DNA of 60,337 nt, taken from the IMG/VR virus record IMGVR_UViG_3300011400_000003, positions 1 to 60,337 of that record. One strand, written 5' to 3'. Every line of letters starts with the position of its first letter. The first letter of the stretch is position 1. Made by a program: the position numbers and the translations under genes. Of the stretch, positions 313-53,039 are shown piece after piece. Below the pieces are notes generated by a model that was not told the origin of the DNA, made no database searches, and saw only the letters and a list, made by a program, of their open reading frames with translations. The stretch is from a virus. Taxonomy: Duplodnaviria > Caudoviricetes.

Positions 313-3045
313 CTATTCCTCCTCTCCACTAGTTGATGCATCAAGAGTACTGAGCGATACACCAAGTCTTTGTGCAACTTCTGCTCTTGTTGCACCTTGT
401 GCTAGCAAGGAGCGAGCTAATGCAGTCTTAGATGCTGTCATCAATACTTGTCGTCTTGGTGTAGCTAGCTCTCGCACATTCTCAATGTCTGCCTTCTTAA
501 GTATCTGAGATAGTACATTGTCGCTAACCGCACCTGCTTGTACTGCATTCCATTCTTCAGGTGTGAACTTAATCTTCTTTGATCTAACACCTACTACTGC
601 ACGAGCACGCTCTAACTCACGCCCTCTAATCTTCTTACGGGAGGACTCTTCTAAATTGGGGTGTTCTGCAAAGTGCGCTCGTGTGATGGTGTTGGCTATA
701 GCCTGGGCCTTTCGTTCACGGGGGCGGTTACTAATGACTAATGAAAGCTTAGCCTTCAATGAATCAACTTCGTTCTTGTAGATCCTGGCTGCTGATGGTG
801 AACGTTGAAGCAATGGTGTATTCAATGCTTCAAGCCTGGCAGTGTTAGCTAAGTTCTTTAACTTGTTAGAGTGATTAGCATACAGCACTTCCATTGGTGT
901 ACCAGAAGAAAGTGTGTGTGCATCCTCTGCTATGGCTAGCTTGTTTACTTTTCTAGTCTTGGGTACTAACTCGCCTGCTTTGTTGCGACGCTTCTTACCT
1001 GTAGGTACGGTAACCTTACGACCAGTGACCCTATCAACGGGCCCACCCTCTGACTGAGGACGATCCTTAAAGTCGGGGAACTTACGTATCTCAGACTTTT
1101 TCCTAGAGATTAAGGTAGATGCGCCCCTGTTTGCGCCTTCCTGATACTCTGCTTTAAGGGCAGCAATACCATTACGTTTCTTAGATAGCTGCCAATCAAG
1201 GCCGTGTTTCTCTGAGTCAATCACTACCATAGAATGACGGATAGCACGAACAAGATGGTCATGTGGCGCAAGCTTAAGAGTCATGTCTGTAATTAAGTTA
1301 GAGACATTACCCATCTCTTGATTCTTCTTGTCCACTGTAATCTTAGGAATTACTAGATTCCCATCTTTGTCTTTAGGAATCTTATAGATCTGAGGATCGA
1401 AGTCTTTCAACCCATCAAGTGGATCAGTAGCAATGAACTTGTTAGAATTGTTAGGAATGACAAGTACAGTATCACCATCAAAGTCGGCACCAGACAACAC
1501 TTGTGCTGTGCTGTGATTAATACCAACAGCATCAATGGCTTCACCACCAATTAATTTCTGTCCTTCAGGATTCCTGTTATTAACTGTTAATCTAGGAATC
1601 TCAAATGTACCACCATGAGGATATCTAACAAGAACTACCTCTTCTCCATTGTTATAGTTAGGAGCATAGATCTCTCTCTTACCAAGGGTATCAAGAGGAA
1701 GGATGGCGTGCCAGTTTGATCTAGGTAAAGCGGCAGCTCTTAAGTGAACAGCAGCAGCATCTGCTTTGTCAGCAAACTTCTCAAGAAGAACCTTCTTAAC
1801 TGTAGGATTGGTTAACTCCATGATGTCTTCAAATTCTTTTTGTTCACGCTCGAAGGTAACATCAAGTTGTTCTTTAGCCAACTTAGGACTCTGCTTTGAA
1901 AGCATCTGAGAAGAAAGACTTTCTGCCCACTTGTGCCAGTCACCCTGCTCGTTGACAAGATTCATAGCAGAGACATTCTTTTCGTTAGGTTGTCCTTCAT
2001 TCTTAACAATCTGACGAACAACGGAACCAAAAGGATAGTCTGTATCTTCCTCAATCTCTTTCATAGCATCAAGTTTATTTCCTGTGTTCTTCTTATTAGT
2101 GTTGAACACAAGATCCACGCCATCAGGAAGGTTGTCCTTGTAGACAGCCATACCTTTCAGATAGTGGCCTTTACCTACTTGAATTCTAACTTGAGCATAC
2201 CGATTCTTACCTAAAGTAAGATCTTTTGCGCCTTCTCGAACATAGATTACACCATCAGCTTCTGCTCCACCTTCATCACCATAACGAATCATTACTCGTC
2301 TTGGACTGACTGGAATTGGAGGATGATTAGTTAAACCCCACTGTCTTCCACCATCAGATGTAAAGGCTTGAATTTGTTTGATGTTGAATCGCTGTTCCCA
2401 GGCTTCTTTTTGAGTAACACCAGGAGGAACGAGTACTTTGTTGTTGGTATCGAAAGTGGTCCCAACCTGTGGTGATTTAAACTGATGAACCCGGTATCCT
2501 TCTTCTTCAAGGATAGCTACTGCAGCAGAAAGTTTTTGTTGACTTATACCTTTGGATTCTAAACCATCACCAATTGGAACATAGCTTTCTACACCACTAC
2601 CAACATCAATTGGACTCTTAGTTTTCCAAGCTTCATCAACATGAGTCTTAAGCATGGCCGCTGTGTTAACGAGAATATCATTACGATCTTTAACACTAGG
2701 GTCTAAAAACGAACGGAAAGTAGTTTCAGGAACACCCATCGCGGCAGCCGCAGCTACACCAGACATACCCTTCTTATACTTTAACTCATGTGCACGTACA
2801 ATGTTATCTTGCCTCTGTCTGTGAAGCTCAATGGTTTTTCTCGCACGAAGTTGTGTTGTGGAAGAACACCCTAACGCTTCTGCTCGTTCTTTCTCAGTAA
2901 GTCCTTGTTTTCTAAGATCCGCTTCAAGATCTAAGAAAGAAGGATTACGAGGCGTTCCTTCATTACCTCCACTACCCCAAGGATAACGACCAGAATGACG
3001 AGGAGTACCATAGTGAGCAAGATAGTCGTCTTCTTCAATAATCAC
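313..3045 (-). CDS. Single-subunit two-barrel DNA-dependent RNA polymerase (YonO-like), with N-terminal LAH-YG tag and HTH segments
   Basis: LSGADFDGD catalytic motif with upstream YAP and RYPH motifs; 910 aa; C-terminal HTH (RAEVAQRLGVSLSTL). Confidence 0.88.
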   Translation of the reverse strand: MIIEEDDYLAHYGTPRHSGRYPWGSGGNEGTPRNPSFLDLEADLRKQGLTEKERAEALGCSSTTQLRARKTIELHRQRQDNIVRAHELKYKKGMSGVAAAAAMGVPETTFRSFLDPSVKDRNDILVNTAAMLKTHVDEAWKTKSPIDVGSGVESYVPIGDGLESKGISQQKLSAAVAILEEEGYRVHQFKSPQVGTTFDTNNKVLVPPGVTQKEAWEQRFNIKQIQAFTSDGGRQWGLTNHPPIPVSPRRVMIRYGDEGGAEADGVIYVREGAKDLTLGKNRYAQVRIQVGKGHYLKGMAVYKDNLPDGVDLVFNTNKKNTGNKLDAMKEIEEDTDYPFGSVVRQIVKNEGQPNEKNVSAMNLVNEQGDWHKWAESLSSQMLSKQSPKLAKEQLDVTFEREQKEFEDIMELTNPTVKKVLLEKFADKADAAAVHLRAAALPRSNWHAILPLDTLGKREIYAPNYNNGEEVVLVRYPHGGTFEIPRLTVNNRNPEGQKLIGGEAIDAVGINHSTAQVLSGADFDGDTVLVIPNNSNKFIATDPLDGLKDFDPQIYKIPKDKDGNLVIPKITVDKKNQEMGNVSNLITDMTLKLAPHDHLVRAIRHSMVVIDSEKHGLDWQLSKKRNGIAALKAEYQEGANRGASTLISRKKSEIRKFPDFKDRPQSEGGPVDRVTGRKVTVPTGKKRRNKAGELVPKTRKVNKLAIAEDAHTLSSGTPMEVLYANHSNKLKNLANTARLEALNTPLLQRSPSAARIYKNEVDSLKAKLSLVISNRPRERKAQAIANTITRAHFAEHPNLEESSRKKIRGRELERARAVVGVRSKKIKFTPEEWNAVQAGAVSDNVLSQILKKADIENVRELATPRRQVLMTASKTALARSLLAQGATRAEVAQRLGVSLSTLDASTSGEEE

Positions 3046-3596
3046 AGGGCCTCCTTTATCATCTCGATCTGTTGGTCAAAATCAATAATGGTTTGCATAA
3101 TAGAAACAATAAGTTCAGGAGGAGGTTCAAATTCTCTGATTTCCTCTCTTTGGTAGATCCTTAAAATGATTCTAATAGTAAACGGATCAACACCATACTC
3201 CAAACAAAAAAGAGCAGCGTAAATCTCAAGTTGTTTCTCAGAAGTAGCAGTTATGCCTGTTTTAAGATCGTGAATTCTTAATATGTTTCTCTTAAAACAA
3301 ATAGTATCGGCTGTTCCAAAACAATTTTCTGAGAAAAATAAGACTTGTTCGCAAACCATCCTGTACCCAATAGCGTCTGCTACATAAGTACACAATGATT
3401 GTTCACCTCTAGAAAGCTTAACGCCGAGATTAATTGCATCATGAGCAAGTTTATGAAGTGCTGTACCTCGACGAGCAGCCATAACAGTATAGAACCTAGC
3501 TTCTAATTTCTGATCAGTATAATTTAGCCAACTATGGTTGCTAGGACTAAGAAATGCGTGCTTGTCTTGCAGTTCCGAATGCCGATTGAAGATCAT
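3042..3596 (-). CDS. PD-(D/E)XK exonuclease, Cas4/RecB-like
   Basis: LSPS, RGTALH, GTAD, IHDLKTG, QLEIYA motifs. Confidence 0.8.
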   Translation of the reverse strand: MIFNRHSELQDKHAFLSPSNHSWLNYTDQKLEARFYTVMAARRGTALHKLAHDAINLGVKLSRGEQSLCTYVADAIGYRMVCEQVLFFSENCFGTADTICFKRNILRIHDLKTGITATSEKQLEIYAALFCLEYGVDPFTIRIILRIYQREEIREFEPPPELIVSIMQTIIDFDQQIEMIKEAL

Positions 3597-3858
3597 CTAA
3601 CACCCGCTCTTCATTCTGAGGATGGATGAAAGCAGCGAAAGACATTTCATCATACATCTCAATGTAGTAGTCTTGATTCGGCTGCTCGGGCGCATTGTAA
3701 GAAGCCTTAACTTCCAACATGGCCCACTGACTTCCAAAAAGAATAAGAAGATCAGGGATCCCTTGGCTGTTTTGTGGATCATTCTTTAAAATGACACAGC
3801 CAGGAAACAAGATGGTCAACTTTCGAATTAAATTTCGTTGGTAGGTGGTCTCGTTCAC
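3547..3858 (-). CDS. VRR-NUC domain nuclease
   Basis: GIPDL...LEVK...NQ motifs; GTG start with GGAGA RBS. Confidence 0.8.
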   Translation of the reverse strand: MNETTYQRNLIRKLTILFPGCVILKNDPQNSQGIPDLLILFGSQWAMLEVKASYNAPEQPNQDYYIEMYDEMSFAAFIHPQNEERVLDDLQSAFGTARQARIS

Positions 3859-3898
3859 GACATCTCCAGAAAAATTGAGAAACTGTGAGTTCCTCTCA

Positions 3899-3922
3899 TT
3901 ATATGGGATGTTTGGCGAGCGG
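3899..3922 (-). promoter_or_regulatory. Phage-specific promoter, divergent copy
   Basis: CCGCTCGCCAAACATCCCATATAA keeps the CGC / ACA / TATAA spacing of the 14 other copies. Confidence 0.55.
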
Positions 3923-3931
3923 AATGATACC

Positions 3932-4447
3932 CTATTTAACAATTTCGAAGATTGACCCATATGGAAAGAGTTCGACGCCTGAGTATGTAGATGTCCAAAT
4001 ATCCTCAAACAGTAAACCCTCTTTCATCCCTGCTTCTACAATACTAGAATAACAATCACCAGTCACAATATTGACACATGCCAGGTTTTGATAATGCACT
4101 GGTATTCTTGCTCTTAACTGATGTGTGTATTTCCATGCAAACCATCTAGGGCGCCAAATAAGATTATAGGCTGCCACATTAGAAAAATCCCCATCTAATA
4201 TCACAACGTGATCGCATAATAAATTAGGAGATTCAACAAAGTACTCAGCAACTAAACGAGCAACACTACGAGTATGTCTTCCACCATCCCATGGAGATTT
4301 CAAAGCGACCTTCAAGTGTCCGAACGTGTTAAAGCTCAGACTCATGATCATGTCTCTAGATGTGTTATAGATTCTACCAACGTTACTCACATGATATGTT
4401 GGAAATTCTCGTATTACTTCCCATTCCTCTTGAATTGTATCAAGCAC
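3932..4447 (-). CDS. NUMOD4 / degenerate HNH protein
   Basis: EEWEVIREFPTYHVSNVGRI (NUMOD4), RLVAEYF, DGDFSN...NL; catalytic His apparently lost; GTG start with GGAGG. Confidence 0.75.
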   Translation of the reverse strand: MLDTIQEEWEVIREFPTYHVSNVGRIYNTSRDMIMSLSFNTFGHLKVALKSPWDGGRHTRSVARLVAEYFVESPNLLCDHVVILDGDFSNVAAYNLIWRPRWFAWKYTHQLRARIPVHYQNLACVNIVTGDCYSSIVEAGMKEGLLFEDIWTSTYSGVELFPYGSIFEIVK

Positions 4448-4718
4448 GGCGCCTCCAGAACTGCCACCATCGTTTACGAACGAGTGCCAGAGACCAACCA
4501 TTAGCTGTACATTTGTCGCAAGGTAAGAATATACCTTGGTTCAAATCCAATACTGCTCCATTGTCCCCACATACAGTACACGGAACATTGTGTGATGCAC
4601 CTAAACCAAAATCAACAATAATCTGTGTTGCGAACGGTTGGGGTTCTGACAATCGGTCTTGGACCACACGATATCGAGAAACTTGCTGATAATTTGTAGC
4701 ATAACTTCTATTGGTCAT
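4440..4718 (-). CDS. Hypothetical Zn-ribbon protein
   Basis: CxxC...CxxC; AAAGGGA RBS. Confidence 0.6.
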   Translation of the reverse strand: MTNRSYATNYQQVSRYRVVQDRLSEPQPFATQIIVDFGLGASHNVPCTVCGDNGAVLDLNQGIFLPCDKCTANGWSLALVRKRWWQFWRRRA

Positions 4719-4979
4719 TATGTCCCTTTCACGTCAGTTTCAAAAATGTGGACAAATATTTCATTTTCTTTGAGAAAAGACTTTGTAGAAATTTACTAGA
4801 TACTCCCATTCTTACATCCATAAAGGGGGTATTATGTTAAAATATATATAGTCTTTTTTCTTTAAAACTGTGTAAAAAACGCCCCACGTCCGAATAATCC
4901 TTATTAACCTAGTAATGCCCACTATTCATGCCCCAATTTGTCCGTTTCACGTCAGTTCTCCAATTGTCTAAAATGTGCG
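4719..4979. other. Candidate replication origin (non-coding, AT-rich, direct repeats)
   Basis: TTTCACGTCAGTT at 4727-4739 and 4945-4957; AT-rich core ~4835-4867; adjacent to helicase. Confidence 0.45.
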
Positions 4980-6179
4980 TCATATTTGAACAAATTCGTC
5001 AGATTTCTCAGGAATTAGATACTCTCTAATAAATTTACGCTCGTTAAAATTCTTCTTATGGTCTAGTGACCACTTGATTCCACGGTCCATTTCAGAATTG
5101 CTCACAAATATGTAATAATAAAGACTAGCGTAAAAGGTATTTAACCTATCAATACGCCCTTGGCATTGTATAAAGTTCTTATAGGAATAAGTCAGACTGT
5201 ATAAAACCATAGAATCAGTGCTAGTACAGTTCCATCCTTCAGCTCCAGCAGTGTACTGAACTAAGAAAATCCAGCTGTCATGGCCGTCCGATTCGGGTAA
5301 TTCGTCGTGTCTGTGCCCATTCCACTCGAATACATCTATCTCTTTACTTAGCGTCCGAAGGATCTCCAACTCATAATCAAACGTGTAAAACACGATCAAT
5401 CGTGGATGGAAAGCCATAAGGAATCTAAGCGCCTCCAGACGAGAAGGGTCAGAGTTAACAACTCTTCGCATAACTCGATACATTTCAGCAGCATCAATAA
5501 TTGGTCTTTGTTCATATACGTGCCACCGATCTTTAGTAACTTTTTTCACTAATTTTTCATTATAGCTAACTGGTATTTCGTTAAGAAAGCGCTCTGCTTT
5601 ACTAACATATGGCATCTCTACCAGGATGTCGTTCCTGAGAACTTCGAGTTTTCTTTCGTTAATGTATCCACGAATTTTTGGATATTTGACAAAGGGTTCG
5701 TAGATAACGTGACGTTGTTTAAATTGAGAGGCGTTCTTGTAGAAACCATTAGCAATGAAAACAGGGGCATAATCGAGCCAGGTATCGCCAGGGGTCGCAC
5801 TAAGTAATACCCAGTGGTTCTTAGCAGCAATTTTGAGAAACGATCGAACCCAGGATCCTCGTCCGACAAGTCTTTGCTCATCAAATATGAAGAAAGCATC
5901 TTTTACTCCCTCGTACTTCCATAAATTGTTCCAACTATTAACTTCTAGAAGTCCATGGTTTGTATCGGGGAAACCAATTCCAAACTTAGCAGCTTCGACT
6001 TCCCAGTCTAATGAATCACGTTTCTTGGCTGTAGTTATCACATAAATGTGCCGGGGGGATTCTTTTTCAATGTAGTACTGAAGCACCGTTGCAGACTTAC
6101 CCGCTCCTACACCGCCCCACAAAATCTTACCGTTACCGAGATGTTCCACTGCCTCCAACTGGTGCTCCATCAATTCCAT
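4980..6179 (-). CDS. SF2 DNA helicase
   Basis: GVGAGKS Walker A, variant DEQR box, LSATP, AGAEGWN, QCQGRIDR. Confidence 0.88.
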   Translation of the reverse strand: MELMEHQLEAVEHLGNGKILWGGVGAGKSATVLQYYIEKESPRHIYVITTAKKRDSLDWEVEAAKFGIGFPDTNHGLLEVNSWNNLWKYEGVKDAFFIFDEQRLVGRGSWVRSFLKIAAKNHWVLLSATPGDTWLDYAPVFIANGFYKNASQFKQRHVIYEPFVKYPKIRGYINERKLEVLRNDILVEMPYVSKAERFLNEIPVSYNEKLVKKVTKDRWHVYEQRPIIDAAEMYRVMRRVVNSDPSRLEALRFLMAFHPRLIVFYTFDYELEILRTLSKEIDVFEWNGHRHDELPESDGHDSWIFLVQYTAGAEGWNCTSTDSMVLYSLTYSYKNFIQCQGRIDRLNTFYASLYYYIFVSNSEMDRGIKWSLDHKKNFNERKFIREYLIPEKSDEFVQI

Positions 6180-6305
6180 TATTCACCTCCTAATATGACC
6201 GCCATCAATAAGAGCTTCTCTCCACGCCCAGAAAACAAAACCCCAAACAATAATGACAAGAACAACAAAAACTACCCAACTAATGATTTCAATAAAAATC
6301 ATTAT

Positions 6306-6473: not shown

Positions 6474-6484
6474 TATTATTCTCC

Positions 6485-8065: not shown

Positions 8066-8073
8066 AAGTTTCC

Positions 8074-8794: not shown

Positions 8795-8795
8795 A

Positions 8796-9090: not shown

Positions 9091-9114
9091 TTATAAGGAG
9101 TGTAAAATATGCGA
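9091..9114 (-). promoter_or_regulatory. Phage-specific promoter
   Basis: TCGCATATTTTACACTCCTTATAA. Confidence 0.8.
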
Positions 9115-9377: not shown

Positions 9378-9401
9378 TTATAGACGCTGTAAAATATGCG
9401 A
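9378..9401 (-). promoter_or_regulatory. Phage-specific promoter
   Basis: TCGCATATTTTACAGCGTCTATAA. Confidence 0.8.
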
Positions 9402-9649: not shown

Positions 9650-9673
9650 TTATAACACATGTAATTTATGCGA
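9650..9673 (-). promoter_or_regulatory. Phage-specific promoter
   Basis: TCGCATAAATTACATGTGTTATAA. Confidence 0.8.
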
Positions 9674-9967: not shown

Positions 9968-9991
9968 TTATATTGTGTGTAAATTCTGCGA
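9968..9991 (-). promoter_or_regulatory. Phage-specific promoter
   Basis: TCGCAGAATTTACACACAATATAA. Confidence 0.8.
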
Positions 9992-27374: not shown

Positions 27375-27398
27375 TTATACGGCTTGTATAATTTGCGA
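27375..27398 (-). promoter_or_regulatory. Phage-specific promoter heading the replication operon
   Basis: TCGCAAATTATACAAGCCGTATAA. Confidence 0.8.
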
Positions 27399-29109: not shown

Positions 29110-29133
29110 TTATGAAAGGTGTAAAATATGCGA
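29110..29133 (-). promoter_or_regulatory. Phage-specific promoter
   Basis: TCGCATATTTTACACCTTTCATAA. Confidence 0.8.
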
Positions 29134-29429: not shown

Positions 29430-29453
29430 TTATATGCCATGTAGAATATGCGA
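29430..29453 (-). promoter_or_regulatory. Phage-specific promoter
   Basis: TCGCATATTCTACATGGCATATAA. Confidence 0.8.
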
Positions 29454-30432: not shown

Positions 30433-30456
30433 TTACAAGGCTTGTAAATTCTGCGA
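30433..30456 (-). promoter_or_regulatory. Phage-specific promoter followed by leader hairpin 30373..30431
   Basis: TCGCAGAATTTACAAGCCTTGTAA. Confidence 0.8.
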
Positions 30457-30695: not shown

Positions 30696-30719
30696 TTATA
30701 CTGGCTGTAAAATATGCGA
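30696..30719 (-). promoter_or_regulatory. Phage-specific promoter
   Basis: TCGCATATTTTACAGCCAGTATAA. Confidence 0.8.
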
Positions 30720-44946: not shown

Positions 44947-46989
44947 TTACAGAGCCGTAAAGGTCCAGTCATCAACCTCACTGGTTGCAAAGTACTTGCC
45001 CGAGGCAGGAGTTGCAACGATCTCAACCGTCTCACCCGAAGGAATCGTGTAAGGCGATCCAGCGTTATCAACAACGGTATCGGTGTCAGTACGTGTGTAC
45101 ACGACGCCAGTGGTGTCATTAATAGTAAGCTCACCGGTCTCCTCATCGAATGTCGGAGCCAGAGGAGTAACCAGAACATCACCCGAAGCAACCTTACGGA
45201 TAACCAGAGCCGACTTCAGCTTGGTAAGAGCGCCGCAAAGACGGGTTTCAATCAGGTACTTGTGCTTGTTGTAGTCAATGTCGAAATCGTCGAACAAGTT
45301 GACTTCGCCACCCTTAGTGGCACCAAACACATAGTCAATGGGGTTCACGATAATGCCAAGAAGCTCTTCATCATCGTCCATTGCCTCAACCGGAATGATG
45401 CTTGCAACACGCAGAACAGTCGCAACCTCGTCCAAGCTCCTGTAAAGCGAACGACCAAGCGTATCCTTCAACAGAAGGAACATGGCAATGACCGTCTCGG
45501 AGGTGTAGAGATTCGGCTGTCCACTACCCTTGTAATACTTGCGATTGGTGATAACCGCGTCGATGAATTCCTGAATCGACGAGCTTGCGTCACCAATGTT
45601 GACGTAAAGGGTGGTCACATACAATTCGTGATCAGTAGCGATCGGACGAATGTTAGCTTCCTGAATCTTGTCTTCATCTGAAATATCCCGACCATCGCCC
45701 ATAAGCGCTGCACGAGCGATTTCCTCGTCGAGCATGATCCGCATCTCAGCCTTGAGCCAAGACACGATATCAAAGTCGGTGATGTCGACAATGTCGTCAC
45801 GGTCCAGAGACTGCTTCTTGTAGATAGTCTGAGGAGTCGTAGTACGACGCAGAATCGGGAAGAACTCTTCCTTCTTCAGATCACCCTTAATGTAACCACG
45901 GGCTCGAGCTTCGTCCATCGTAATATCCGCAGCAAAGGTCTTGATACGACTAAACGGGCTCTTACGAGTGGCGGCAAGAAACGAGCCTACCCATTCCGTA
46001 CGACGCTGAAGAAACTCGGGAACTGCATCGGTTGCAACAGCATCTGGGAACAGAATATCAATGTCCGTAATACCGTGAGACAGTGCATAGTTCTCTGCAG
46101 CGTGCTTCAATGAACCGGTACGAATGGCGTCTTTGAGGATCGCATCACGATCTTCATGAGAAAGAATCGACTCTCCTTCCTTACCATCATCACCGCTTTC
46201 AAACACGTTGTGCTTCACTTCTCCACCCTTCTTTTCTTTGTCATCGTCGTCGTCTTCGTCATCGTCCTCATCGGAAGACTGCTTCATGTCACTCTTCTTG
46301 ATTCCAAGAGCTTCTCCAACGAGGAACTGAACTACTTCCTGTTGCTCGGTGTTCATTGAAGCATAAATATCCCCAACAGTACGATCATCAGCATGCTCGA
46401 TGTCTTCACCGCTTCTCACACCAATCAAAGTGTGGAGAAATTCACGGTCTTCGTCATCCATCTTATCGAGAAACTCGACAATATCCTTCTTTGCTTCGGT
46501 TTTGCTACCCATTCCTCCACCTACTGTGTTGGTGTGCTCGAAACTGAGCCCAGTGTAAATGATTGCTTCATCTTCAATAATCTCATCCCCATCATCATGG
46601 CGGATGGTAATAGGATCAATAAGAGCGCCAGGATTAGCGCCACCAAGTACAAGACTAACTTCACGGATTGCCCCGTGAAACACTTTCTTTCCTCGTTCAA
46701 TGAGTTGATTAGCCCAGATGGAAAGCATAGTGATGTCGCCATGTTGGACTAACCCTTTAGCATGCTGCGCTTGCCTAGAATCGTTGAAATATGCACTACA
46801 CCAAACACCTTCTGGGCGATTTTCAAGAATTGCATGGCCCAAAACATTCTCTGGTGTCTTTTTATCATGCTGCCAAACAAGAGGAACCGTAAGGTTATCC
46901 TGATGCTCGAAAGCGTTGGGCATGATTGTGCGGCCGTCGGTGCATTGAAGCCCTGCCTTGGTGGCCCAGCCGCAGAAATCTGCTTCCAT
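44947..46989 (-). CDS. Prohead protease-scaffold-major capsid fusion with C-terminal Ig-like domain
   Basis: VPLVWQH, LSI, EVSLV (HK97-type protease); acidic linker; LDEEIARA.L.GDGR; FDIDYN...ETR. Confidence 0.92.
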   Translation of the reverse strand: MEADFCGWATKAGLQCTDGRTIMPNAFEHQDNLTVPLVWQHDKKTPENVLGHAILENRPEGVWCSAYFNDSRQAQHAKGLVQHGDITMLSIWANQLIERGKKVFHGAIREVSLVLGGANPGALIDPITIRHDDGDEIIEDEAIIYTGLSFEHTNTVGGGMGSKTEAKKDIVEFLDKMDDEDREFLHTLIGVRSGEDIEHADDRTVGDIYASMNTEQQEVVQFLVGEALGIKKSDMKQSSDEDDDEDDDDDKEKKGGEVKHNVFESGDDGKEGESILSHEDRDAILKDAIRTGSLKHAAENYALSHGITDIDILFPDAVATDAVPEFLQRRTEWVGSFLAATRKSPFSRIKTFAADITMDEARARGYIKGDLKKEEFFPILRRTTTPQTIYKKQSLDRDDIVDITDFDIVSWLKAEMRIMLDEEIARAALMGDGRDISDEDKIQEANIRPIATDHELYVTTLYVNIGDASSSIQEFIDAVITNRKYYKGSGQPNLYTSETVIAMFLLLKDTLGRSLYRSLDEVATVLRVASIIPVEAMDDDEELLGIIVNPIDYVFGATKGGEVNLFDDFDIDYNKHKYLIETRLCGALTKLKSALVIRKVASGDVLVTPLAPTFDEETGELTINDTTGVVYTRTDTDTVVDNAGSPYTIPSGETVEIVATPASGKYFATSEVDDWTFTAL

Positions 46990-47003
46990 TTTGATTGTCC
47001 TTT

Positions 47004-48257
47004 CTAAGAATTCGGCGGCTGTTCTTCCGGCTGATTCTTAGGTTTTAATTCGCCAGTATTAACAACTACACCTGGTTGTGGCATGTTGCTATTAACTAAT
47101 TCATCTGCTTTAGGATCTTGCGAAGGAGGAAGACCCATGCCAGCTCTAACTTCGTTGCTAGACAAGATTTCATTACGAGTAAATTTGTCTGCAATTTCAG
47201 CAAGATCTTTAAGCGGAACCAACTGGAACGGATTTCTAAAGTACTGAACTGCTTTTAGATCTTTAGTACCTTGATACCCAATGAATGAACGCTGCATTGC
47301 TTCTCTAATAGCATCAATGATTGGTTTAACTGTTCTGTTGAAATAGTTAATCATGGTTGCTTCGGTAGCTGTGCCATTCATTACCTCTTCAGTAAGACCA
47401 AGTTGACTATAAAGCATTGCGGTAAGGTACTCAACTTGCTTAAGGAGGTTATTCTCAGCCGGTCGATTTAATTGTGTGACCTTTTCGGTGCTATCAGTAT
47501 ACGCAATACCATACTGACTACCTTTTAATTGAAGTTCAATGTCAGAACGACGCGTTTCTGCTTGTTGCCGTCGGGCCTCAGACTTAATTACATACGGAAG
47601 TTGAATAATCAGGTCTAACTTTCCAGAACTCGACTGTTCATCAACCGCATCAAGTAAAGACAACTTTTTAATGAGTCTTTGAAGGGTTGAATTCGGCTCA
47701 TTCATTACAGAATAAAGCGGATTTTCAACAATTGCAACAGAATTTTTCTTTAACGTAATCTCTTCTCTTAAGCCCTTTGCCTCATTATATACTCTGACTC
47801 TGACGTGGCTTGGGTACCAAGCACGAATTTCTCCTACACGAAGACTATAAATATCAATAGTTTCTTCGCTACTAGGATCAATTGTTGTATCTACTGGAAC
47901 AATAGCAGCACATCCACCATCAAACAAAGTCAAAGCGATGTCTTGTCTAAATGCTCGAGGCGCTTGATCAATATTCGCTTCTAGAGTTAAACAATTATTA
48001 AAAAAACTTTCAATGTCTTCTAGATAGCGTTTCTTATCATCCAATTTTACATGTCTGAAGTCAATTCCAGCAACATCAATAGCAATACGATTGTAAATTG
48101 AAGAAATGATAGTTCGTTCGTTATTGAAACTTCTTCTTGGTACTGATGGAGAACTACCACCAGAATATGTTGGTGTACCAGTACCATAATCTAATCTTGT
48201 TTCTTCCTGACTACGAAAAGCATTAACAGCTCTTCGTAACCGAGCACGAATAGCCAA
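47004..48257 (-). CDS. Portal protein
   Basis: IYNRIAIDVA, GKLDLIIQLPY, NEILSSNEVR. Confidence 0.9.
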   Translation of the reverse strand: MAIRARLRRAVNAFRSQEETRLDYGTGTPTYSGGSSPSVPRRSFNNERTIISSIYNRIAIDVAGIDFRHVKLDDKKRYLEDIESFFNNCLTLEANIDQAPRAFRQDIALTLFDGGCAAIVPVDTTIDPSSEETIDIYSLRVGEIRAWYPSHVRVRVYNEAKGLREEITLKKNSVAIVENPLYSVMNEPNSTLQRLIKKLSLLDAVDEQSSSGKLDLIIQLPYVIKSEARRQQAETRRSDIELQLKGSQYGIAYTDSTEKVTQLNRPAENNLLKQVEYLTAMLYSQLGLTEEVMNGTATEATMINYFNRTVKPIIDAIREAMQRSFIGYQGTKDLKAVQYFRNPFQLVPLKDLAEIADKFTRNEILSSNEVRAGMGLPPSQDPKADELVNSNMPQPGVVVNTGELKPKNQPEEQPPNS

Positions 48258-48290
48258 GAGGTGTCACCTCCCTTCAAATATAATTATTAT

Positions 48291-48353
48291 CTATGGTGCT
48301 GGAATGCCATGATGCTCAAGGAACTCCGATAAATCCATTTCCATAGTATTCAC
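48291..48353 (-). CDS. 20-aa micro-ORF consisting of the FLEH-HGI tag
   Basis: MNTMEMDLSEFLEHHGIPAP; AGGAGG RBS. Confidence 0.5.
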   Translation of the reverse strand: MNTMEMDLSEFLEHHGIPAP

Positions 48354-48381
48354 TAATCCTCCTTTTTAAATATGATGGAGG

Positions 48382-48777
48382 TTAGGTGTAAGCACCAACT
48401 TGATTCAGAACCGTTCCATCAAAGAAGAACAAGGCCACACCATCGGCAGCAAGAGTGAACTTAGCAGCAGCGCTTGCAGTCCCACCAAGCTTAATAGCTC
48501 TAGCGTCTCCACCGTCAAACGCGACGGTCGGAGTTTCTGCAGAGTTTCCATTGGTGAACTTAATGGCAACAAGAGTGTTTGCCTCCGGTTCAGCAGCAGT
48601 AGTAGTCTTCGCTGCAGTACCAATTGCCGTTGCAACAGTGATCGGAACTGATTCTAAATCACTAGCAGTAAACGGTGAACCACCTGCATTAAACAAAGCA
48701 ATTTCTGCGGTTGGCCGATCAAGTCGAAGTGTCTGACGACGTGAACGCTCAACAACATTATACTGATGAACTTCCAT
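48382..48777 (-). CDS. Ala/Thr-rich structural (decoration/fibre-like) protein
   Basis: TAAKT...IKFTNGNSA.TPT fibre-type motif. Confidence 0.6.
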   Translation of the reverse strand: MEVHQYNVVERSRRQTLRLDRPTAEIALFNAGGSPFTASDLESVPITVATAIGTAAKTTTAAEPEANTLVAIKFTNGNSAETPTVAFDGGDARAIKLGGTASAAAKFTLAADGVALFFFDGTVLNQVGAYT

Positions 48778-48796
48778 TTTGAATCCTTTTTCTAAG

Positions 48797-49339
48797 TTAC
48801 CGCTGAGCGGTTTTGATGAGTCGGTTTACAGTTCTTTTTAGTCGTTGAGATTCAACGACATCTTTAACTTTACTTATACTATTACTCATTACTGTTTGGC
48901 CTTTTGGACTAGAAAGGAAAGCAGCACCTCCAGCAGCGATTGCTACAAAAGCGGCTTTCGTTCCCATTTCTCCAGTAATTCGACGAGCAATAGCACCGCC
49001 GGTTTGCTTAGCAGCTTTGCCCTTATTTTTTCTAGATCGTTCTGATCGAGCTTTGGATGCGTGCTTAGATAAATCTTGATTATTAAGATGTCTGTCAAAC
49101 GCCTTTGCGTAAGTTGGATCTTTCTTTTTCTTTGCTTCTACGGTAGCCTTAATCAATTTTCGACGAGTTCCAGCACCTTCGCCAAAGAATAATTTTGCTC
49201 TTGCGAACTCTTTTGCATCTTTAGCAGCTGCACGATCAGTGCCTCTAGAAGCACCGCCTCGATCATCATTACGAATACCCCATCGCATTCCTTTAATACC
49301 GAAGTGTTCTAGGAACTCCTCGGTTTGTAAATCGTTCAC
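48797..49339 (-). CDS. HxGxKGMRWG-tag protein (putative internal virion protein)
   Basis: FLEHFGIKGMRWGIR; basic body; C-terminal hydrophobic segment. Confidence 0.75.
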   Translation of the reverse strand: MNDLQTEEFLEHFGIKGMRWGIRNDDRGGASRGTDRAAAKDAKEFARAKLFFGEGAGTRRKLIKATVEAKKKKDPTYAKAFDRHLNNQDLSKHASKARSERSRKNKGKAAKQTGGAIARRITGEMGTKAAFVAIAAGGAAFLSSPKGQTVMSNSISKVKDVVESQRLKRTVNRLIKTAQR

Positions 49340-49352
49340 TTGAACACCTCCT

Positions 49353-50882
49353 CTATAAAACTGCGGCTACTTTTCTATCAAATCTCTTATTAAGAATTTC
49401 TGCAAAGTTTGAGAACTGACTAGCATCCATCTTACCTTCAGCACGCATTCTTCTTAACGAATACATTTGTGTTTCACGTTGACTTTCGATGAACTCTTGA
49501 GCTGTTTGAGATACGTTTCTAGCTCTTCCAGCATTGCCTCTAGCATTATAACCACCAAAGTTAGGAGGATCAAACTTAAAATTACGTGGACCACTGTTTT
49601 CTTGACGAAGAGCATATAAAGCTAGAGCAAATGGAACTGTAAAAACTAAACTTTTTGCGGCGCCAATTGCGGCACCCTTTGCGGCTTTTCTTCTCATCTT
49701 TCGTGCTCTACGTTGACGAGGTGTCAATTTTACATCACGAGCAAGCCTACGTTTATCATTTCTAACACCCCATCGCATTCCTTTAATACCGAAATGCACA
49801 AGAAAATTATCTACGTCATTAATTGCCGCCATAAATAATTCACCTAAAGTCATTTGCATCAATTTAATCTCAGATTCCCCAACAAAGGTATGCGCATTTA
49901 AGGTATCAAGTTGAAAATCCGACCCATTTAAAAGACGCAATGGTGTTTTAGCAAGTCTTCCTGAATCATTAAAATCAATTAACGCATTATATCCACTATC
50001 TTTTACCATCTTAAAAAATTGTTGTACATCAGGATGACCGTCCAGCCCATTAGCCCATTGAATAACAAAATTTCCGAAATTTTGTTTAGCTAATCCATCA
50101 ATTGCTTTTTCTTTATCTACTTCACTTAATGTTCCCCAAATTCTTCCAACTGGCGTATTGGCTATAATTCTTTGATCTCTAAGAAGGTTTTTAAAAATAT
50201 TAAACGTTTCTTCTCCTGATGGCGCTTTAATTGGAACCTGAGATCTAAGATTAACCAGCCAACCACTTTTATTATCATAACCCCAAGTTTTCCACCATTT
50301 TGGTAATTCTGCTTTATAACGTTGAACATCTGAATCTTCAAAAGCAGCGAAAAACCCTTGAGGTCTAATTTCTGTTTCTTGAATGGTCGATAATCTTTTA
50401 AAAATAGAACCAGCAGGAAGATCTATTTTAGTGCCCCAATGATCGTCTAAGCCAGGTACAACCCCTTCTAACGTACTCATTGGAGATTCTGAAAGAACTT
50501 TAAGTTGCTCTAAATTAAGCTGAGCATAATCATCTTGAAGGCCTTTTACATCTAATAGAAAATCGCTGCCAACACCATACTTTTTACCTAAATATATAGC
50601 TCCACCGGCTAAAAGTGCACCACCAACACCTATACCAACACCTAAAGCAATTTTCTTTTGCTTATCGGTTAAATGAAAACCTTTATCGTCATCTTTTCCG
50701 GTATATGGACCGTACTTTCGGTTAAGTTGATCGCTTCGAAAATCTTTATCTGAAAATACGCCCTTAATTTTCTTTTGTACATCATCATTAAATTGTGAAA
50801 TGCTATTTGTGATATCTTTTCTAATCCCCCATCGCATTCCTTTAACACCATAGTGCTCAAGGAAGACGTCTACGTCATTCAC
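49353..50882 (-). CDS. Double HxGxKGMRWG-tag protein (two fused modules)
   Basis: FLEHYGVKGMRWG at the N-terminus and internal FLVHFGIKGMRWG; two TM-like segments. Confidence 0.8.
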   Translation of the reverse strand: MNDVDVFLEHYGVKGMRWGIRKDITNSISQFNDDVQKKIKGVFSDKDFRSDQLNRKYGPYTGKDDDKGFHLTDKQKKIALGVGIGVGGALLAGGAIYLGKKYGVGSDFLLDVKGLQDDYAQLNLEQLKVLSESPMSTLEGVVPGLDDHWGTKIDLPAGSIFKRLSTIQETEIRPQGFFAAFEDSDVQRYKAELPKWWKTWGYDNKSGWLVNLRSQVPIKAPSGEETFNIFKNLLRDQRIIANTPVGRIWGTLSEVDKEKAIDGLAKQNFGNFVIQWANGLDGHPDVQQFFKMVKDSGYNALIDFNDSGRLAKTPLRLLNGSDFQLDTLNAHTFVGESEIKLMQMTLGELFMAAINDVDNFLVHFGIKGMRWGVRNDKRRLARDVKLTPRQRRARKMRRKAAKGAAIGAAKSLVFTVPFALALYALRQENSGPRNFKFDPPNFGGYNARGNAGRARNVSQTAQEFIESQRETQMYSLRRMRAEGKMDASQFSNFAEILNKRFDRKVAAVL

Positions 50883-52627
50883 TCGAACGCCTCCTTGTTA
50901 AGCTTGTAAGCAACATAAGCGTCCATCATAGCAGAAACGTTATCAATCTTGTCTTCTGCTCGTTTCTTGAACAATTTTCGATTTCCGTTAGTATCTTCCA
51001 GAGTAACAGCATTACCCATAGCAAAAGTCATAAGTTCTTGATCAAATATAAGTGCTCGTTGCTCAGCTAAAATCTTCAATTCGCCAAGAGGAACCGACTC
51101 TGTTCTTGCTCCTTGAATGACTTTCTCTATACCATACGGGCCGTTTTCTTGTTCCCATCTGGTAACAAAGGCCTTAGCGTTGTATGGATCGAAGCCAAAG
51201 CATCGAACATCATACTCTTTTGCTAATATAAAAGCATCGAGATCATCATAAACTTCATTATCAACATCAAGAACGTTTCCGTCCATGATAACAAGACTTC
51301 CCTCTCGAATGAATTCTTCATACTTCATTCGCATGGCGCCTGGAAGTTTAAGCAAAGTCAATTCTGTAATATAACTTCGAGTCTTGACGCCAAAGCTTCC
51401 GTTTGAAAGCGGAAACAGAAAAGTAAACGCACAGAAGTCGTCGCCTTGGGATAGGTCAGCACCAAGAGCACACGGAATCTGCCAGAACTCTTTCGGTGGA
51501 TGTGGAAGAGTGTCTTCGTAAGTGAAGAAATATGTATAGCCTTCCATTGGAATACCGAAACGCTTAGCTAAAATATCATTACGAGCAGCAGGAGCTTTCT
51601 CGGCTCTTTCTACATCTAAATGATAGACGTCATACGTTACGGTTTTTCCTAGATTAGGCTGAGCTTTCAACCACATCTCTGGTTGAGCAACTTCTTCAAT
51701 ATCGTCAAGTTTGTAATGCCAGATTGAAATATGAGGAGCGTGATACTCTCCTCTAAGAATTTTACCCAATTCTAATTTAATAGTGTCGCCAGATCCGTTT
51801 CTAACCGTTCCTTCAGAACTAATAGCGACAATCAACCAGTCGTCCATCTTGGAAGCGCCCTGCTCGATTGCTCCAACGACATCCTCTCGAATATCGCCGG
51901 AAAGCCATTCGTCAACAGTTGAAATTTTTGGTCTTAATCCCTGCAGCTTGTTGATAGCCATAGGACGAATCTCAAGTATTGACCCAGTTAGAAAATTTTC
52001 AATTCCCTTTTTAGTTGAAGCCAGTTTTTGACGCATAGCGGTTGATCCACTAGTGTTTCTAACTGTTCCCTCTGTAAGGAATTTGAACAACGGACCTCTA
52101 GCTCTGGTAATTGCAGTTCTAAAAGGGGATAGAACTTCATCTGCTTGCTTCATGGTTGGAGCGGTATTGATTTGGTGAGTGGTTGCAACATCAACATTAA
52201 GAAAATATGCTTGAATGCAACAAGCATACATTGATTTAGCAGCACCTCTAGCCACAATCAAATATTGTTTTGTAACTAATCGTTTCTTAAGTAATTTCGT
52301 AACGTATCCACCAGGTTCACCTTCTTCTCCTGGTTGATAAACGCTTCGTTCAACATAGTAATACCAACCAAATATCTGTTCTGCCCATACTTTGAACGTA
52401 TCAAGAAGATACAAATCAGTACCATCAGTAAGCGTTAATTCCCATTCGCAATACTTGATGAAACCTTCAACTGCTTCTGAATCATACCAAATATCTGGAT
52501 TAGCTATAAGATCATCGATACGATTCATCTCTAGAGAAATTAATTCGTTTACAGGAATTTCTCCACGTAAAACTTGGTCTCTAAATATACCATAGTACTG
52601 TGGCGTAGCGGTATTTGATAAAACCAA
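50879..52627 (-). CDS. terL: Terminase large subunit
   Basis: VARGAAKS Walker A, VDEW Walker B, GADLS, FDPY, KIDNVSAMMDA. Confidence 0.95.
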   Translation of the reverse strand: MVLSNTATPQYYGIFRDQVLRGEIPVNELISLEMNRIDDLIANPDIWYDSEAVEGFIKYCEWELTLTDGTDLYLLDTFKVWAEQIFGWYYYVERSVYQPGEEGEPGGYVTKLLKKRLVTKQYLIVARGAAKSMYACCIQAYFLNVDVATTHQINTAPTMKQADEVLSPFRTAITRARGPLFKFLTEGTVRNTSGSTAMRQKLASTKKGIENFLTGSILEIRPMAINKLQGLRPKISTVDEWLSGDIREDVVGAIEQGASKMDDWLIVAISSEGTVRNGSGDTIKLELGKILRGEYHAPHISIWHYKLDDIEEVAQPEMWLKAQPNLGKTVTYDVYHLDVERAEKAPAARNDILAKRFGIPMEGYTYFFTYEDTLPHPPKEFWQIPCALGADLSQGDDFCAFTFLFPLSNGSFGVKTRSYITELTLLKLPGAMRMKYEEFIREGSLVIMDGNVLDVDNEVYDDLDAFILAKEYDVRCFGFDPYNAKAFVTRWEQENGPYGIEKVIQGARTESVPLGELKILAEQRALIFDQELMTFAMGNAVTLEDTNGNRKLFKKRAEDKIDNVSAMMDAYVAYKLNKEAFE

Positions 52628-52646
52628 CTAAACCACCTCCTATGAT

Positions 52647-53039
52647 TTAAATAAATGATGAACCTGGTTTAAGATTAATTCTTCTACCTTTATGTCTATT
52701 AATAAATGCCGCAATTGGTTTTCCTGCAGGACTGTTTGCAATAGCTGCAACAGAAGAAATAAGCCCTGCAGTAGCAACAACTGCTTTAATATGCTTTTCG
52801 CCTCGTTTAATTGTTCCAGGATTAAGACGATCAAAATTCTGCTCTAAACCAAGTCGAGTATTCACTGTTTGTAATTGTTTATTGGTTAAAGAAGTTTTTG
52901 GCTTCTTTCGAAGATCGTTCGCTGTTTTATAATCTACAGTTACTCGACCGGTTCTTGAGTCTACCTTATTACGAATACCCCATCGCATTCCTTTAATACC
53001 GTGGTGTGCAAGCACACCTTCTACATCCATAAATATCAC
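52647..53039 (-). CDS. HxGxKGMRWG-tag protein
   Basis: VLAHHGIKGMRWGIR; LTNKQL...RL.LE; hydrophobic segment. Confidence 0.75.
   Translation of the reverse strand: MIFMDVEGVLAHHGIKGMRWGIRNKVDSRTGRVTVDYKTANDLRKKPKTSLTNKQLQTVNTRLGLEQNFDRLNPGTIKRGEKHIKAVVATAGLISSVAAIANSPAGKPIAAFINRHKGRRINLKPGSSFI

What the first reader, a model, noticed from the sequence alone, without database searches (positions are those of the whole stretch)
313..53039. Putative head-loading and maturation system: one LxH tag links the RNA polymerase, the capsid scaffold and a set of cargo proteins
Seen: the DFDGD RNA polymerase begins DDYLAH-YGTPRHSGRYPWG. Three genes around terL carry four tags (FLEH-FGIKGMRWG, FLEH-YGVKGMRWG, FLVH-FGIKGMRWG, VLAH-HGIKGMRWG). 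A 20-aa micro-ORF carries FLEH-HGI. The capsid scaffold is studded with hydrophobic-x-H sites ending in LSH-GI. Established: HK97-type prohead proteases cleave scaffold sites, and T4 internal proteins use cleavable capsid-targeting sequences. Inference: acidic-LxH is the prohead protease site and the aromatic-G...W-G peptide is a head-targeting signal. The phage would then package and eject its own RNAP plus interchangeable cargo proteins. This would make the enzyme a virion RNAP, unlike SPbeta YonO, which transcribes late genes.
Basis: partly seen in the sequence, partly recalled or inferred. Interest (0 to 1): 0.9.

Follow-up and report, generated by a model that had tools for sequence, protein, structure and literature searches.

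The report
His-site cargo tag on phage proteins
This uncultured tailed phage puts one short peptide tag, opening with the same Leu-x-His site that studs the spacer of its capsid precursor, on several small proteins and in half-form on its own RNA polymerase, so these proteins are probably loaded into the virus head and trimmed there, though nobody has measured this.

Summary
The window is a complete 60-kb uncultured siphovirus of the known Lactococcus-1706/actinophage lineage. Four copies of a roughly 20-residue tag (Pfam DUF7211) sit in three genes beside terL. A 17-20-codon micro-ORF carries the first half of the tag. The two-barrel RNA polymerase opens with that same first half, then continues with a different invariant sequence.

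The capsid gene is a protease-spacer-capsid fusion. All 8 His in its spacer follow hydrophobic-x. In relatives the figures are 498 of 574 and 258 of 293, the second set chosen by tag alone. Tag His is essentially invariant (188 of 190; 445 of 445).

In 1706, the depositors label both the two-tag protein and the polymerase "structural protein".

My best reading, at about 0.5: hydrophobic-x-His is the head-protease site, and tagged proteins, probably including the polymerase, are loaded into proheads, trimmed and ejected. Cleavage, loading and ejection are all inferred, not shown.

It works like the T4 capsid-targeting sequences and like known virion polymerases, so I class it as a new variant of a known kind. 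I found no paper on the tag. This scan has already reported the same system on at least eight other genomes.

The parts
313..3045 (-). Single-subunit two-barrel RNA polymerase, 910 aa, with DFDGD at residues 521-525 and a C-terminal helix-turn-helix
   Evidence: phrog_4291 E=0 and Pfam HTH_23; Pfam RdRP 17.8 bits is under its cut-off. DFDGD is invariant in 56 aligned homologues. AlphaFold model mean pLDDT 80.4. Foldseek best hit QDE-1 E 3.6e-10; phage P32 gp64 RNA polymerase E 1.7e-6.
2965..3045 (-). N-terminal motif of the RNA polymerase (residues 1-27): acidic leader, Y-L-A-H, then YGTPRHSGRYPWGSGG
   Evidence: Nearly invariant in the 120 best of 4325 homologues; His is residue 11 in 87 of 115. 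It lies in the only model segment with pLDDT<50, residues 1-32. hhalign against the tag profile: 94.8%, residues 1-14 only. My own tag HMM gives E 0.04.
52647..53039 (-). 130-aa tagged protein; tag at 52971-53027
   Evidence: DUF7211 33.5 bits; PF23847 match.
50879..52627 (-). Terminase large subunit
   Evidence: PF20441 E 8e-32 and phrog_9 E 4e-106.
49353..50882 (-). 509-aa two-tag protein: tag 1 at 50814-50879 (N-terminal), tag 2 at 49752-49820 (residue ~355, preceded by M-A-A-I-NDVDN, which mirrors the N-terminus)
   Evidence: DUF7211 83.3 bits with 2 stretches. Two-tag and multi-tag proteins are common in relatives.
48797..49339 (-). 180-aa tagged protein (phrog_6291); tag at 49262-49327
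   Evidence: DUF7211 36.6 bits; phrog_6291 E 6e-52.
48291..48353 (-). Micro-ORF of 17-20 codons carrying only the first half of the tag (SEFLEHHGI), with its own ribosome-binding site. It is in frame with the portal gene but separated from it by two stops.
   Evidence: My tag HMM gives E 3e-4 over HMM positions 1-14. No analogue was seen in 155 related loci. Probably a remnant of a tag gene.
47004..48257 (-). Portal protein
   Evidence: PF04860 E 4e-12 and phrog_12 E 8e-42.
46645..46989 (-). Protease domain (residues 1-115) of the protease-spacer-capsid fusion
   Evidence: phrog_3270 'head maturation protease' E 7e-227. Pfam Peptidase_S78 19.5 bits is under its 21-bit cut-off. Confident beta-rich fold. 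H41, H52, S90 and S112 are invariant.
46075..46644 (-). Spacer (scaffold-like, residues 116-305) with eight hydrophobic-x-His sites: His 131, 152, 186, 199, 260, 278, 296, 305
   Evidence: Conserved His columns: 131 (74 of 74), 152 (64), 199 (42), 278 (71), 305 (66 of 74).
44947..46074 (-). HK97-fold major capsid domain (residues 306-680), beginning GITDIDILFP right after His305
   Evidence: Foldseek against PDB: gene-transfer-agent, Bxb1, HK97 and encapsulin shells, best E 1.2e-9.

Best explanation
Hydrophobic-x-His is the cutting site of the head-maturation protease that this phage lineage fuses to its capsid protein.

Inferred cuts in the fusion. The spacer would be cut at these sites. The last cut, after His305, would free the mature HK97-fold capsid protein.

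The tag. DUF7211 is a bipartite signal. It has an acidic leader ending in phi-L-x-His, which is the same site, followed by [YFH]-G-[VI]-K-G-M-[KR]-W-G-[VI]-R, which stays on the product. It stands at the start of, or between, unrelated and mostly small, basic cargo modules encoded around terL and portal.

Proposed sequence of events (all inferred). Tagged proteins are taken into the assembling prohead, possibly by docking on the roughly 400 protease/spacer copies or on the shell interior, as encapsulin cargo peptides do. They are cut after His, stay with the DNA, and leave with it at infection.

The polymerase. It carries the site half on a disordered N-terminus, so it is probably packaged and delivered in the same way. 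It would then start phage transcription in the cell.

Shown here: the motifs, their conservation, their co-occurrence, and the disorder of the polymerase N-terminus.

Inferred: cleavage, loading and ejection.
For: 1. The site is real in the spacer.
- In 74 aligned fusions (window, 72 IMG/VR loci, ReqiPoco6), His columns sit at window residues 131 (74 of 74), 152 (64), 199 (42), 278 (71) and 305 (66), each with L/I/V two residues before.
- 498 of 574 spacer His have a hydrophobic residue at -2, against 118.5 expected. The window has 8 of 8.

2. An independent set chosen by tag alone agrees.
- Of 75 GTDB loci, 20 were too short. 48 of the remaining 55 carry the fusion downstream on the same strand.
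- 258 of 293 spacer His fit, against 62.0 expected.

3. The tag His is essentially invariant: 188 of 190 parsed tags and 445 of 445 in the 150 best database proteins.

4. Tags separate modules in polyproteins with 2-5 tags (27, 102, 20 and 1 of 150). The window's 509-aa protein has two.

5. Cargo is unrelated.
- 13 PHROG families share the tag in one window protein.
- Of 43 tagged ORFs, all 43 hit DUF7211, 4 hit LigT-like families, 3 hit GNAT and 1 hit a glutamine-deamidase fold.
- The 30 residues after the tag carry a mean net charge of +5.4.

6. The polymerase N-terminus.
- It is near-invariant.
- It is the only disordered segment of the model.
- It matches the tag's first half: hhalign score 28.7, against at most 15.7 in 20 column-shuffled controls.
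- 16 of the tag-selected loci also hold such a polymerase.

7. In GenBank EU081845 the depositors label 1706 orf7 (tags at residues 34 and 183) and orf75 (the polymerase homologue) 'structural protein'.

8. The capsid fusion and the polymerase occur in the same cultured phage groups: 244 and 250 records, with identical genus counts for Arthrobacter, Gordonia, Streptomyces and Lactococcus.
Against: - No experiment stands behind any step.
- The 1706 label is a database annotation. I could not read the paper. 1706 orf62 and orf71 bear the same label without a tag, so the label is not specific.
- The polymerase fails DUF7211 and shares only the first half of the tag.
- The residue after His is aromatic in tags but S/A/G/D in spacer sites.
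- The motif alone cannot define a cut. It is also enriched in the folded parts of the fusion (357 of 732 against 201.5 expected). It is only mildly depleted in cargo bodies (88 of 555 against 112.3) and in polymerase bodies (413 of 1917 against 459.3).
- His131 is invariant and could belong to the protease rather than be a site.
- Pfam S78 is under its cut-off.
- 7 of 55 tag-selected loci showed no fusion.
- The polymerase gene is the last gene of the genome. An ordinary early, non-virion enzyme therefore remains possible.
- A 100-kDa enzyme would have to unfold to pass through a siphovirus tail.
Confidence: 0.5

Rival explanations
1. Processing without delivery. The tag is only a head-protease site that cuts polyproteins and leaders. 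The products would be assembly or internal head proteins (scaffold helpers, DNA-condensing proteins) with no role in the next host. The polymerase would not be ejected.
For: Multi-tag polyproteins. Basic stretches follow the tags. The genes sit in the head-assembly block. Most cargo has no enzyme domain: 35 of 43 hit only DUF7211.
Against: Some cargo are enzymes typical of host take-over: LigT-like 4, GNAT 3 and a deamidase fold 1 of 43. The second half of the tag is more conserved than a cut site needs to be.
Confidence: 0.2
2. Docking without cutting. The whole 20-25-residue tag is a binding peptide for the shell interior, the portal or DNA, like an encapsulin cargo-loading peptide. The His would be a contact residue. 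Its likeness to the spacer sites would reflect binding of the same partner.
For: The Gly/Trp-rich half is invariant (G14, G17, M18, W20, G21 in 78 tags). The capsid domain resembles encapsulin shells. Tags within one genome resemble each other, down to an identical 18-nt DNA core here.
Against: Internal tags at module borders and short leaders of constant length before His fit cutting better. The spacer must in any case be removed from an HK97-type capsid protein.
Confidence: 0.12
3. The polymerase is not a virion protein. Its conserved N-terminus would serve the enzyme itself or its regulation, for example late inactivation by the head protease or a contact with a host or phage factor. The enzyme would be made after infection, like SPbeta YonO or P23-45 gp64.
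For: The polymerase fails DUF7211 and has its own invariant second half. Its gene lies with the replication genes at the genome end. The nearest phage fold matches, P74 gp62 and P32 gp64, belong with the non-virion P23-45-type enzyme (abstract and outline).
Against: The 1706 orf75 annotation as structural protein. The shared, disordered site half. Strict co-occurrence with this head type.
Confidence: 0.3
4. A chance or DNA-level repeat with no role as a peptide.
For: The four tags share an identical 18-nt core.
Against: 0 of 200 shuffles reach the observed count. The peptide is kept across 32,849 cluster representatives from many host phyla. Between copies, identical residues use different codons in 2-4 of 13-14 positions.
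Confidence: 0.01

Closest known systems
Phage T4 capsid-targeting sequences on internal proteins IPI-III and Alt, removed by prohead protease gp21 (recalled, not from a call)
   Same: A short N-terminal peptide on unrelated proteins. It ends in a hydrophobic-x-residue site that also occurs in the scaffold and capsid precursors. Cargo includes host-modifying enzymes that are injected with the DNA.
   Different: The P1 residue is His, not Glu. The protease is the HK97/S78-like type and is fused to the capsid protein. A conserved half of the tag would remain on the product. Tags also lie between modules of polyproteins. The virus is a siphovirus. Nothing has been tested.
Virion two-barrel RNA polymerases: crAss-like phi14:2 gp66 (10.1101/2020.03.07.982082, abstract read) and P23-45 gp96 fused to the tape measure (10.1101/2022.12.01.518664, abstract read); also N4 vRNAP (search listing only)
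   Same: A single-chain enzyme with the DxDGD-type loop that could be delivered with the DNA to transcribe early genes.
   Different: Here it is a compact 910-aa stand-alone protein. It is not fused to a tail protein. Its putative address is a head-protease-site leader. Virion location rests on one annotation in a relative.
Pfam PF23847 (DUF7211), function unknown
   Same: The four tags of the window are members, scoring above the cut-off.
   Different: The family has no assigned role. The polymerase N-terminus and the micro-ORF match only its first half.
Lactococcus phage 1706 / actinophage supercluster and its RdRP-like HTH protein (Koert et al., 10.1101/842583; Results read, other sections searched by term)
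   Same: The same genome plan, capsid fusion, TerL, portal and polymerase (45-52% identity to cultured members).
   Different: In the Results, which I read, and in passages elsewhere found by searching for 'RNA polymerase', 'virion' and 'structural protein', the preprint names the polymerase as a lineage signature. It does not mention the tag, the His sites or virion packaging.
Encapsulin cargo-loading peptides (recalled)
   Same: A short Gly-rich peptide on diverse cargo, addressed to the inside of an HK97-fold shell.
   Different: Encapsulin peptides are not cut, and no DNA or ejection is involved. Binding of the tag to the shell is untested here.
MuF-fused polymorphic toxins of temperate phages (recalled)
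   Same: Interchangeable effector domains carried in the head through a common head-protein module.
   Different: The carrier there is a folded MuF domain bound to the portal, not a 20-residue peptide with a protease site.

Membership tests
Pfam DUF7211 (PF23847) | Score above the 27-bit gathering cut-off | tested here: met
   The three tag proteins score 33.5, 83.3 (two stretches) and 36.6 bits. There are 4 matches over the cut-off in the record.
Pfam DUF7211 (PF23847), applied to the RNA polymerase N-terminus and the micro-ORF | Score above the 27-bit gathering cut-off | tested here: not met
   The polymerase is not listed at E<=0.01. Neither element is among the 4 matches of 6 candidates. 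My own tag HMM gives the micro-ORF E 3e-4 and the polymerase E 0.04, both over the first half only.
T4-type capsid-targeting sequence system | The leader ends in the same site motif as the scaffold and capsid-precursor cuts | tested here: met
   phi-L-x-His occurs in tags and phi-x-His in spacers. The residue after His differs.
T4-type capsid-targeting sequence system | The leader is removed by the prohead protease, and the peptide is sufficient for encapsidation | not testable with these tools
   Needs N-terminal proteomics and reporter fusions.
T4-type capsid-targeting sequence system | Cargo is present in mature heads and injected | tested here: inconclusive
   The only support is the depositors' 'structural protein' labels for 1706 orf7 and orf75. 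Untagged orf62 and orf71 bear the same label.
HK97-type (S78) prohead protease | Pfam Peptidase_S78 above its cut-off | tested here: not met
   19.5 bits against a cut-off of 21, E 0.0011.
HK97-type (S78) prohead protease | Membership of a head-protease family, with conserved His/Ser and a compact beta-rich fold ahead of the capsid domain | tested here: met
   phrog_3270 E 7e-227. H41, H52, S90 and S112 are invariant in 41 sequences. Residues 1-115 are confidently folded. Catalysis was not tested.
HK97-fold major capsid protein | Fold match to solved HK97-type shells | tested here: met
   Foldseek E 1.2e-9 to 6tsu; also Bxb1 and HK97 prohead. No PDB relative by sequence.
Single-subunit two-barrel RNA polymerase (YonO / QDE-1 / crAss gp66 kind) | DxDGD catalytic loop and a two-barrel fold | tested here: met
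   DFDGD at 521-525 is invariant. Foldseek: QDE-1 E 3.6e-10, P32 gp64 E 1.7e-6. Pfam RdRP 17.8 bits is under its 23.8-bit cut-off.
Virion RNA polymerase | The enzyme is in purified virions, and early transcription is independent of host polymerase and of new protein synthesis | not testable with these tools
   Only the 1706 orf75 annotation bears on this.

The most novel reading that the evidence does not exclude
A general, programmable cargo system of a very large siphovirus lineage. Any protein headed by DUF7211 would dock inside the assembling HK97-type head, on the capsid-fused protease/spacer or on the shell. It would be cut after His by a His-specific prohead protease and be ejected with the DNA. 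The phage's own compact two-barrel RNA polymerase would travel the same way and start transcription at the phage-specific TCGCA..TTTACA-N5-TATAAT sites, independently of the host enzyme.
Probability: 0.3. Interest if true: 0.8.

Novelty: new variant of a known kind. Interest (0 to 1): 0.6.

Why it matters
If true, it gives a function to a Pfam family with 32,849 cluster representatives. It would define an unusual His-specific head protease. It would explain how a widespread siphovirus lineage delivers changing sets of effectors, and perhaps its own polymerase, into hosts. That lineage includes hundreds of cultured teaching-collection phages and a dairy phage.

It is directly testable, because cultured relatives exist. 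A 20-residue loading tag would also be a handy tool for packing foreign proteins into phage heads.

For this window alone it is one more instance of something the scan has already reported on other genomes.

Tried and rejected
- Complex prediction. I folded the protease domain (A1 residues 1-125) with the tag (A2). Verdict: no answer, scores 0.01 and 0.00 against a mark of 0.32. This is no evidence either way.
- Solved structures. phmmer of the capsid fusion and of the polymerase against PDB gave 0 matches. No cryo-EM N-terminus could be read.
- Papers not held. Garneau 2008 (1706) and Summer 2011 (Rhodococcus phages) are not in the library. Whether 1706 orf7, orf10 and orf75 are processed stays unknown. 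Supplements were closed.
- Literature for the tag. 'DUF7211' gave 0 papers. The motif strings gave 1 unrelated paper. 'YonO / virion RNA polymerase / actinobacteriophage' and 'phage 1706 / RNA polymerase / virion' gave nothing on packaging. One search was badly posed and useless.
- The search for related loci with the single polymerase sequence found nothing. I used the search for homologous proteins instead.
- tblastn with the 37-aa tag is too insensitive to count cultured phages: 13 records.
- Idea that cargo are membrane proteins. Only 56 of 252 modules have a strongly hydrophobic 19-mer, against 200 of 2285 control frames. It is enriched but not general.
- Idea that mature cargo avoids the site. 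The depletion is only mild.
- Idea that the portal is tagged. 68 of 117 relatives have R-L-K-H-A-W-N-A-F at the N-terminus, but the others have K, S or N in place of His. The window has R-L-R-R-A-V-N-A-F. Not a required site.
- Micro-ORF. No analogue in 155 related loci, so I read it as a remnant.
- Central domain of the 509-aa protein. Atlas leads to RES / ART-PolyVal score 0.86-0.87, under the 0.9 mark. Pfam finds nothing.
- ReqiPepy6 and ReqiPoco6 'structural' labels are copied from 1706 by similarity. They are not independent.

Full report
WHAT THE WINDOW IS. The window is a whole IMG/VR virus record, 60,337 bases and rated complete. Every gene lies on the minus strand. The gene order runs as follows:
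- a LigT-like gene, lysis genes and a connector;
- a tag gene, TerL, two tag genes, a 131-aa ORF, a micro-ORF and the portal;
- a protease-spacer-capsid fusion, tail genes and a 1552-aa tape measure;
- small early genes, a primase-polymerase, a helicase, an HNH nuclease and an exonuclease;
- the RNA polymerase as the last gene.

The capsid fusion and the polymerase are 45-52% identical to those of cultured Gordonia, Arthrobacter, Streptomyces and Rhodococcus phages. The polymerase is 39% identical to that of Lactococcus phage 1706. This lineage and its RdRP-like polymerase were described by Koert et al. (10.1101/842583; Results read; term search of the rest).

The loose pattern [FVLIMY]L.H[FYHW]G matches only these six places in all six frames. 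Shuffles gave a mean of 0.745, and 0 of 200 reached six. The four full tags are Pfam DUF7211, above the cut-off.

I built a tag HMM from 81 distinct tags of related loci, leaving the window out. It ranks the four tag ORFs first (E 1e-27 to 9e-12). The micro-ORF follows (3e-4, first half only), then the polymerase N-terminus (0.04, first half only), then noise from E 1.6.

The micro-ORF has its own ribosome-binding site. It lies in frame with the portal gene, behind two stops.

THE CAPSID PRECURSOR AND ITS HIS SITES. The AlphaFold model shows four regions:
- a folded beta-rich protease domain, residues 1-115;
- a long region that is largely low-confidence (pLDDT under 50 at 116-167, 190-203 and 226-272) and carries helices at 165-188 and 205-229;
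- two helices at 278-291 and 294-304;
- a capsid domain that matches HK97-type shells.

I aligned 74 fusions. I dropped 8 of the 80 IMG/VR loci because their match did not span the protein. In the otherwise poorly conserved spacer, His columns stand out at residues 131, 152, 199, 278 and 305, each with L/I/V two residues before. Site 305 reads E-x-Y-A-L-x-H|G-I-x-N-I-D, directly ahead of the capsid domain.

Across the set, 498 of 574 spacer His follow hydrophobic-x, against 118.5 expected. The window has 8 of 8, and 1 of 100,000 shuffles reached that. The sequences are related, so these counts are not independent events. The surrounding spacer sequence, however, is largely unalignable.

AN INDEPENDENT TEST. 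I fetched 75 loci from species-representative genomes using the tag pattern alone. By record title the hosts span Actinomycetota, Bacillota, Bacteroidota, Acidobacteriota, Patescibacteria and others.
- Of the 55 loci with enough DNA after the first tag, 48 carry the fusion on the same strand. 20 loci were too short.
- The seven exceptions include a second site on a contig that does hold the fusion, one contig that ends early, and one locus with a protease hit in a 1318-residue frame.
- In those 48 fusions, 258 of 293 spacer His fit the motif, against 62.0 expected.
- Sixteen of these loci also show a roughly 900-residue polymerase that opens with ...L-M-H-Y-G-[VM]-[KP]-R-R-S-G-R-Y-P-W-G-S-G.

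THE TAG.
- His is present in 188 of 190 parsed tags of the tag-selected set. The residue two before it is L 167, I 15, F 4, V 2, M 2.
- A profile search of 1.84 billion representatives finds 32,849 proteins at E<=0.001.
- The 150 best carry 2 to 5 tags each, about 200 residues apart, with His in 445 of 445 tags. Ranking by summed score favours multi-tag proteins, so this is not a census.
- In the 80 capsid-selected loci, 65 tagged ORFs have the His mostly 9-30 residues from the first start codon, or internally. Twelve have two tags.
- The cargo is unrelated. It is basic just after the tag. It sometimes carries LigT-like, GNAT or deamidase domains.
- Tags within one genome resemble each other. 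Here they share an identical 18-nt core. That fits either a common partner or gene conversion.

THE POLYMERASE.
- DFDGD is invariant.
- The fold matches QDE-1 and Thermus-phage two-barrel polymerases.
- In the 120 best of 4325 homologues, the N-terminus M-I-I-D-E-D-D-Y-L-A-H-Y-G-T-P-R-H-S-G-R-Y-P-W-G-S-G-G is nearly invariant. The region as a whole is only about 50% identical.
- In the model it lies in the only segment under pLDDT 50, residues 1-32.

A disordered yet invariant stretch is what a motif read by another protein looks like. Profile comparison aligns its first 14 residues with the first half of the tag. The score is 28.7 at 94.8% probability, and 20 column-shuffled controls reached at most 15.7. 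The second half is a different sequence.

EVIDENCE FROM A CULTURED RELATIVE. In the original 1706 record, the depositors call orf7 and orf75 'structural protein'. orf7 has two tags and orf75 is the polymerase homologue. The ReqiPepy6 and ReqiPoco6 labels are copied from that record.

I recall that the 1706 labels came from mass spectrometry of virions, but I could not read the paper. Two untagged early-region proteins, orf62 and orf71, have the same label. The label alone is therefore weak evidence.

HOW IT MOST LIKELY WORKS, AND WHAT SPEAKS AGAINST IT. The most economical reading has three parts:
- hydrophobic-x-His is the head-protease site;
- the tag joins that site to a retained Gly/Trp-rich peptide;
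- tagged proteins, and probably the polymerase, are loaded, trimmed and delivered.

Against it:
- nothing has been measured;
- the residue after His differs between tags and spacer;
- the motif is not rare in folded domains, and it is only mildly avoided in cargo;
- His131 may belong to the protease;
- the polymerase could be an ordinary non-virion enzyme whose N-terminus has another role.

COMPARISON AND NOVELTY. The system works like T4 capsid-targeting sequences (recalled). Delivered two-barrel polymerases are known in crAss-like phages and in siphovirus P23-45 (abstracts read). Four things differ here:
- His stands at the cut site;
- the protease is fused to the capsid protein;
- half of the tag is retained;
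- tags divide polyproteins.

I found no paper on the tag. I found none that places this lineage's polymerase in the virion.

The scan has reported the same system on at least eight other genomes. My tests agree with those notes. They add the tag-selected co-occurrence test, the disorder of the polymerase N-terminus, the multi-tag polyproteins and the candidate promoter family.

Noticed in passing
window 9101-9114, 9388-9401, 9660-9673, 9978-9991, 27385-27398, 29120-29133, 29440-29453, 30443-30456, 30706-30719 (minus strand); also about 28775: A repeated intergenic motif, TCGCATATTTTACA-N5-TATAAT-GG. The 14-mer has 11 matches at up to 2 mismatches, against 0.61 expected. Nine are intergenic, mostly after a terminator-like hairpin and 25-35 nt before a gene start. 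TTTACA lies only 5 nt from TATAAT, so the spacing is not sigma-70-like. This is a candidate phage-specific promoter, possibly for the phage polymerase with its sigma-region-4-like HTH.
   Followed up: partly
window 59772-60266 (-): A LigT-like 2H phosphoesterase (PF13563, E 8e-11) without a tag. In ReqiPoco6 gp015 and in 4 of 43 tagged ORFs of relatives, the same kind of domain carries a DUF7211 tag.
   Followed up: partly
window 53055-54407 (-): A sulfatase-family gene (PF00884, E 2e-22) sits in the head-gene block, directly upstream of the first tag gene. This is unusual cargo for a phage. Its role is unknown.
   Followed up: no
window 48230-48257 (portal N-terminus) and portals of L007-L165: Portal N-termini of relatives carry R-L-K-H-A-W-N-A-F. 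68 of 117 have hydrophobic-x-His there. The rest have K, S or N instead of His, and the window has R-L-R-R-A-V-N-A-F. The portal may be trimmed in some relatives, as lambda gpB is (recalled).
   Followed up: partly
window 52977-53000, 50826-50849, 49767-49790, 49277-49300: All four tags share an identical 18-nt core (TAAAGGAATGCGATGGGG). Two of them share 33 identical bases. This could drive cassette exchange or gene conversion between tag genes.
   Followed up: partly
window 49848-50585 (-), central domain of the 509-aa two-tag protein: The language-model look-alike search points to RES and ART-PolyVal (NAD-using toxin-like) clusters at 0.86-0.87, which is under the 0.9 mark. Pfam finds nothing. 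If real, it would parallel T4 Alt.
   Followed up: partly
P0121-P0270 (database proteins): Polyproteins of 259-1569 residues carry 2-5 DUF7211 tags, about 200 residues apart.
   Followed up: partly
L007, L028, L029, L044, L053, L060, L065, L113, L135, L139, L156, L163: A tag variant with Gln in place of Met (G-V-K-G-Q-K-W-G) is common in some relatives.
   Followed up: no
L005 45052-45330 and L003 1659-2012 (phage 1706 orf62, orf71): Two small early-region proteins of 1706 are annotated 'structural protein' but have no tag or N-terminal His site.
   Followed up: partly
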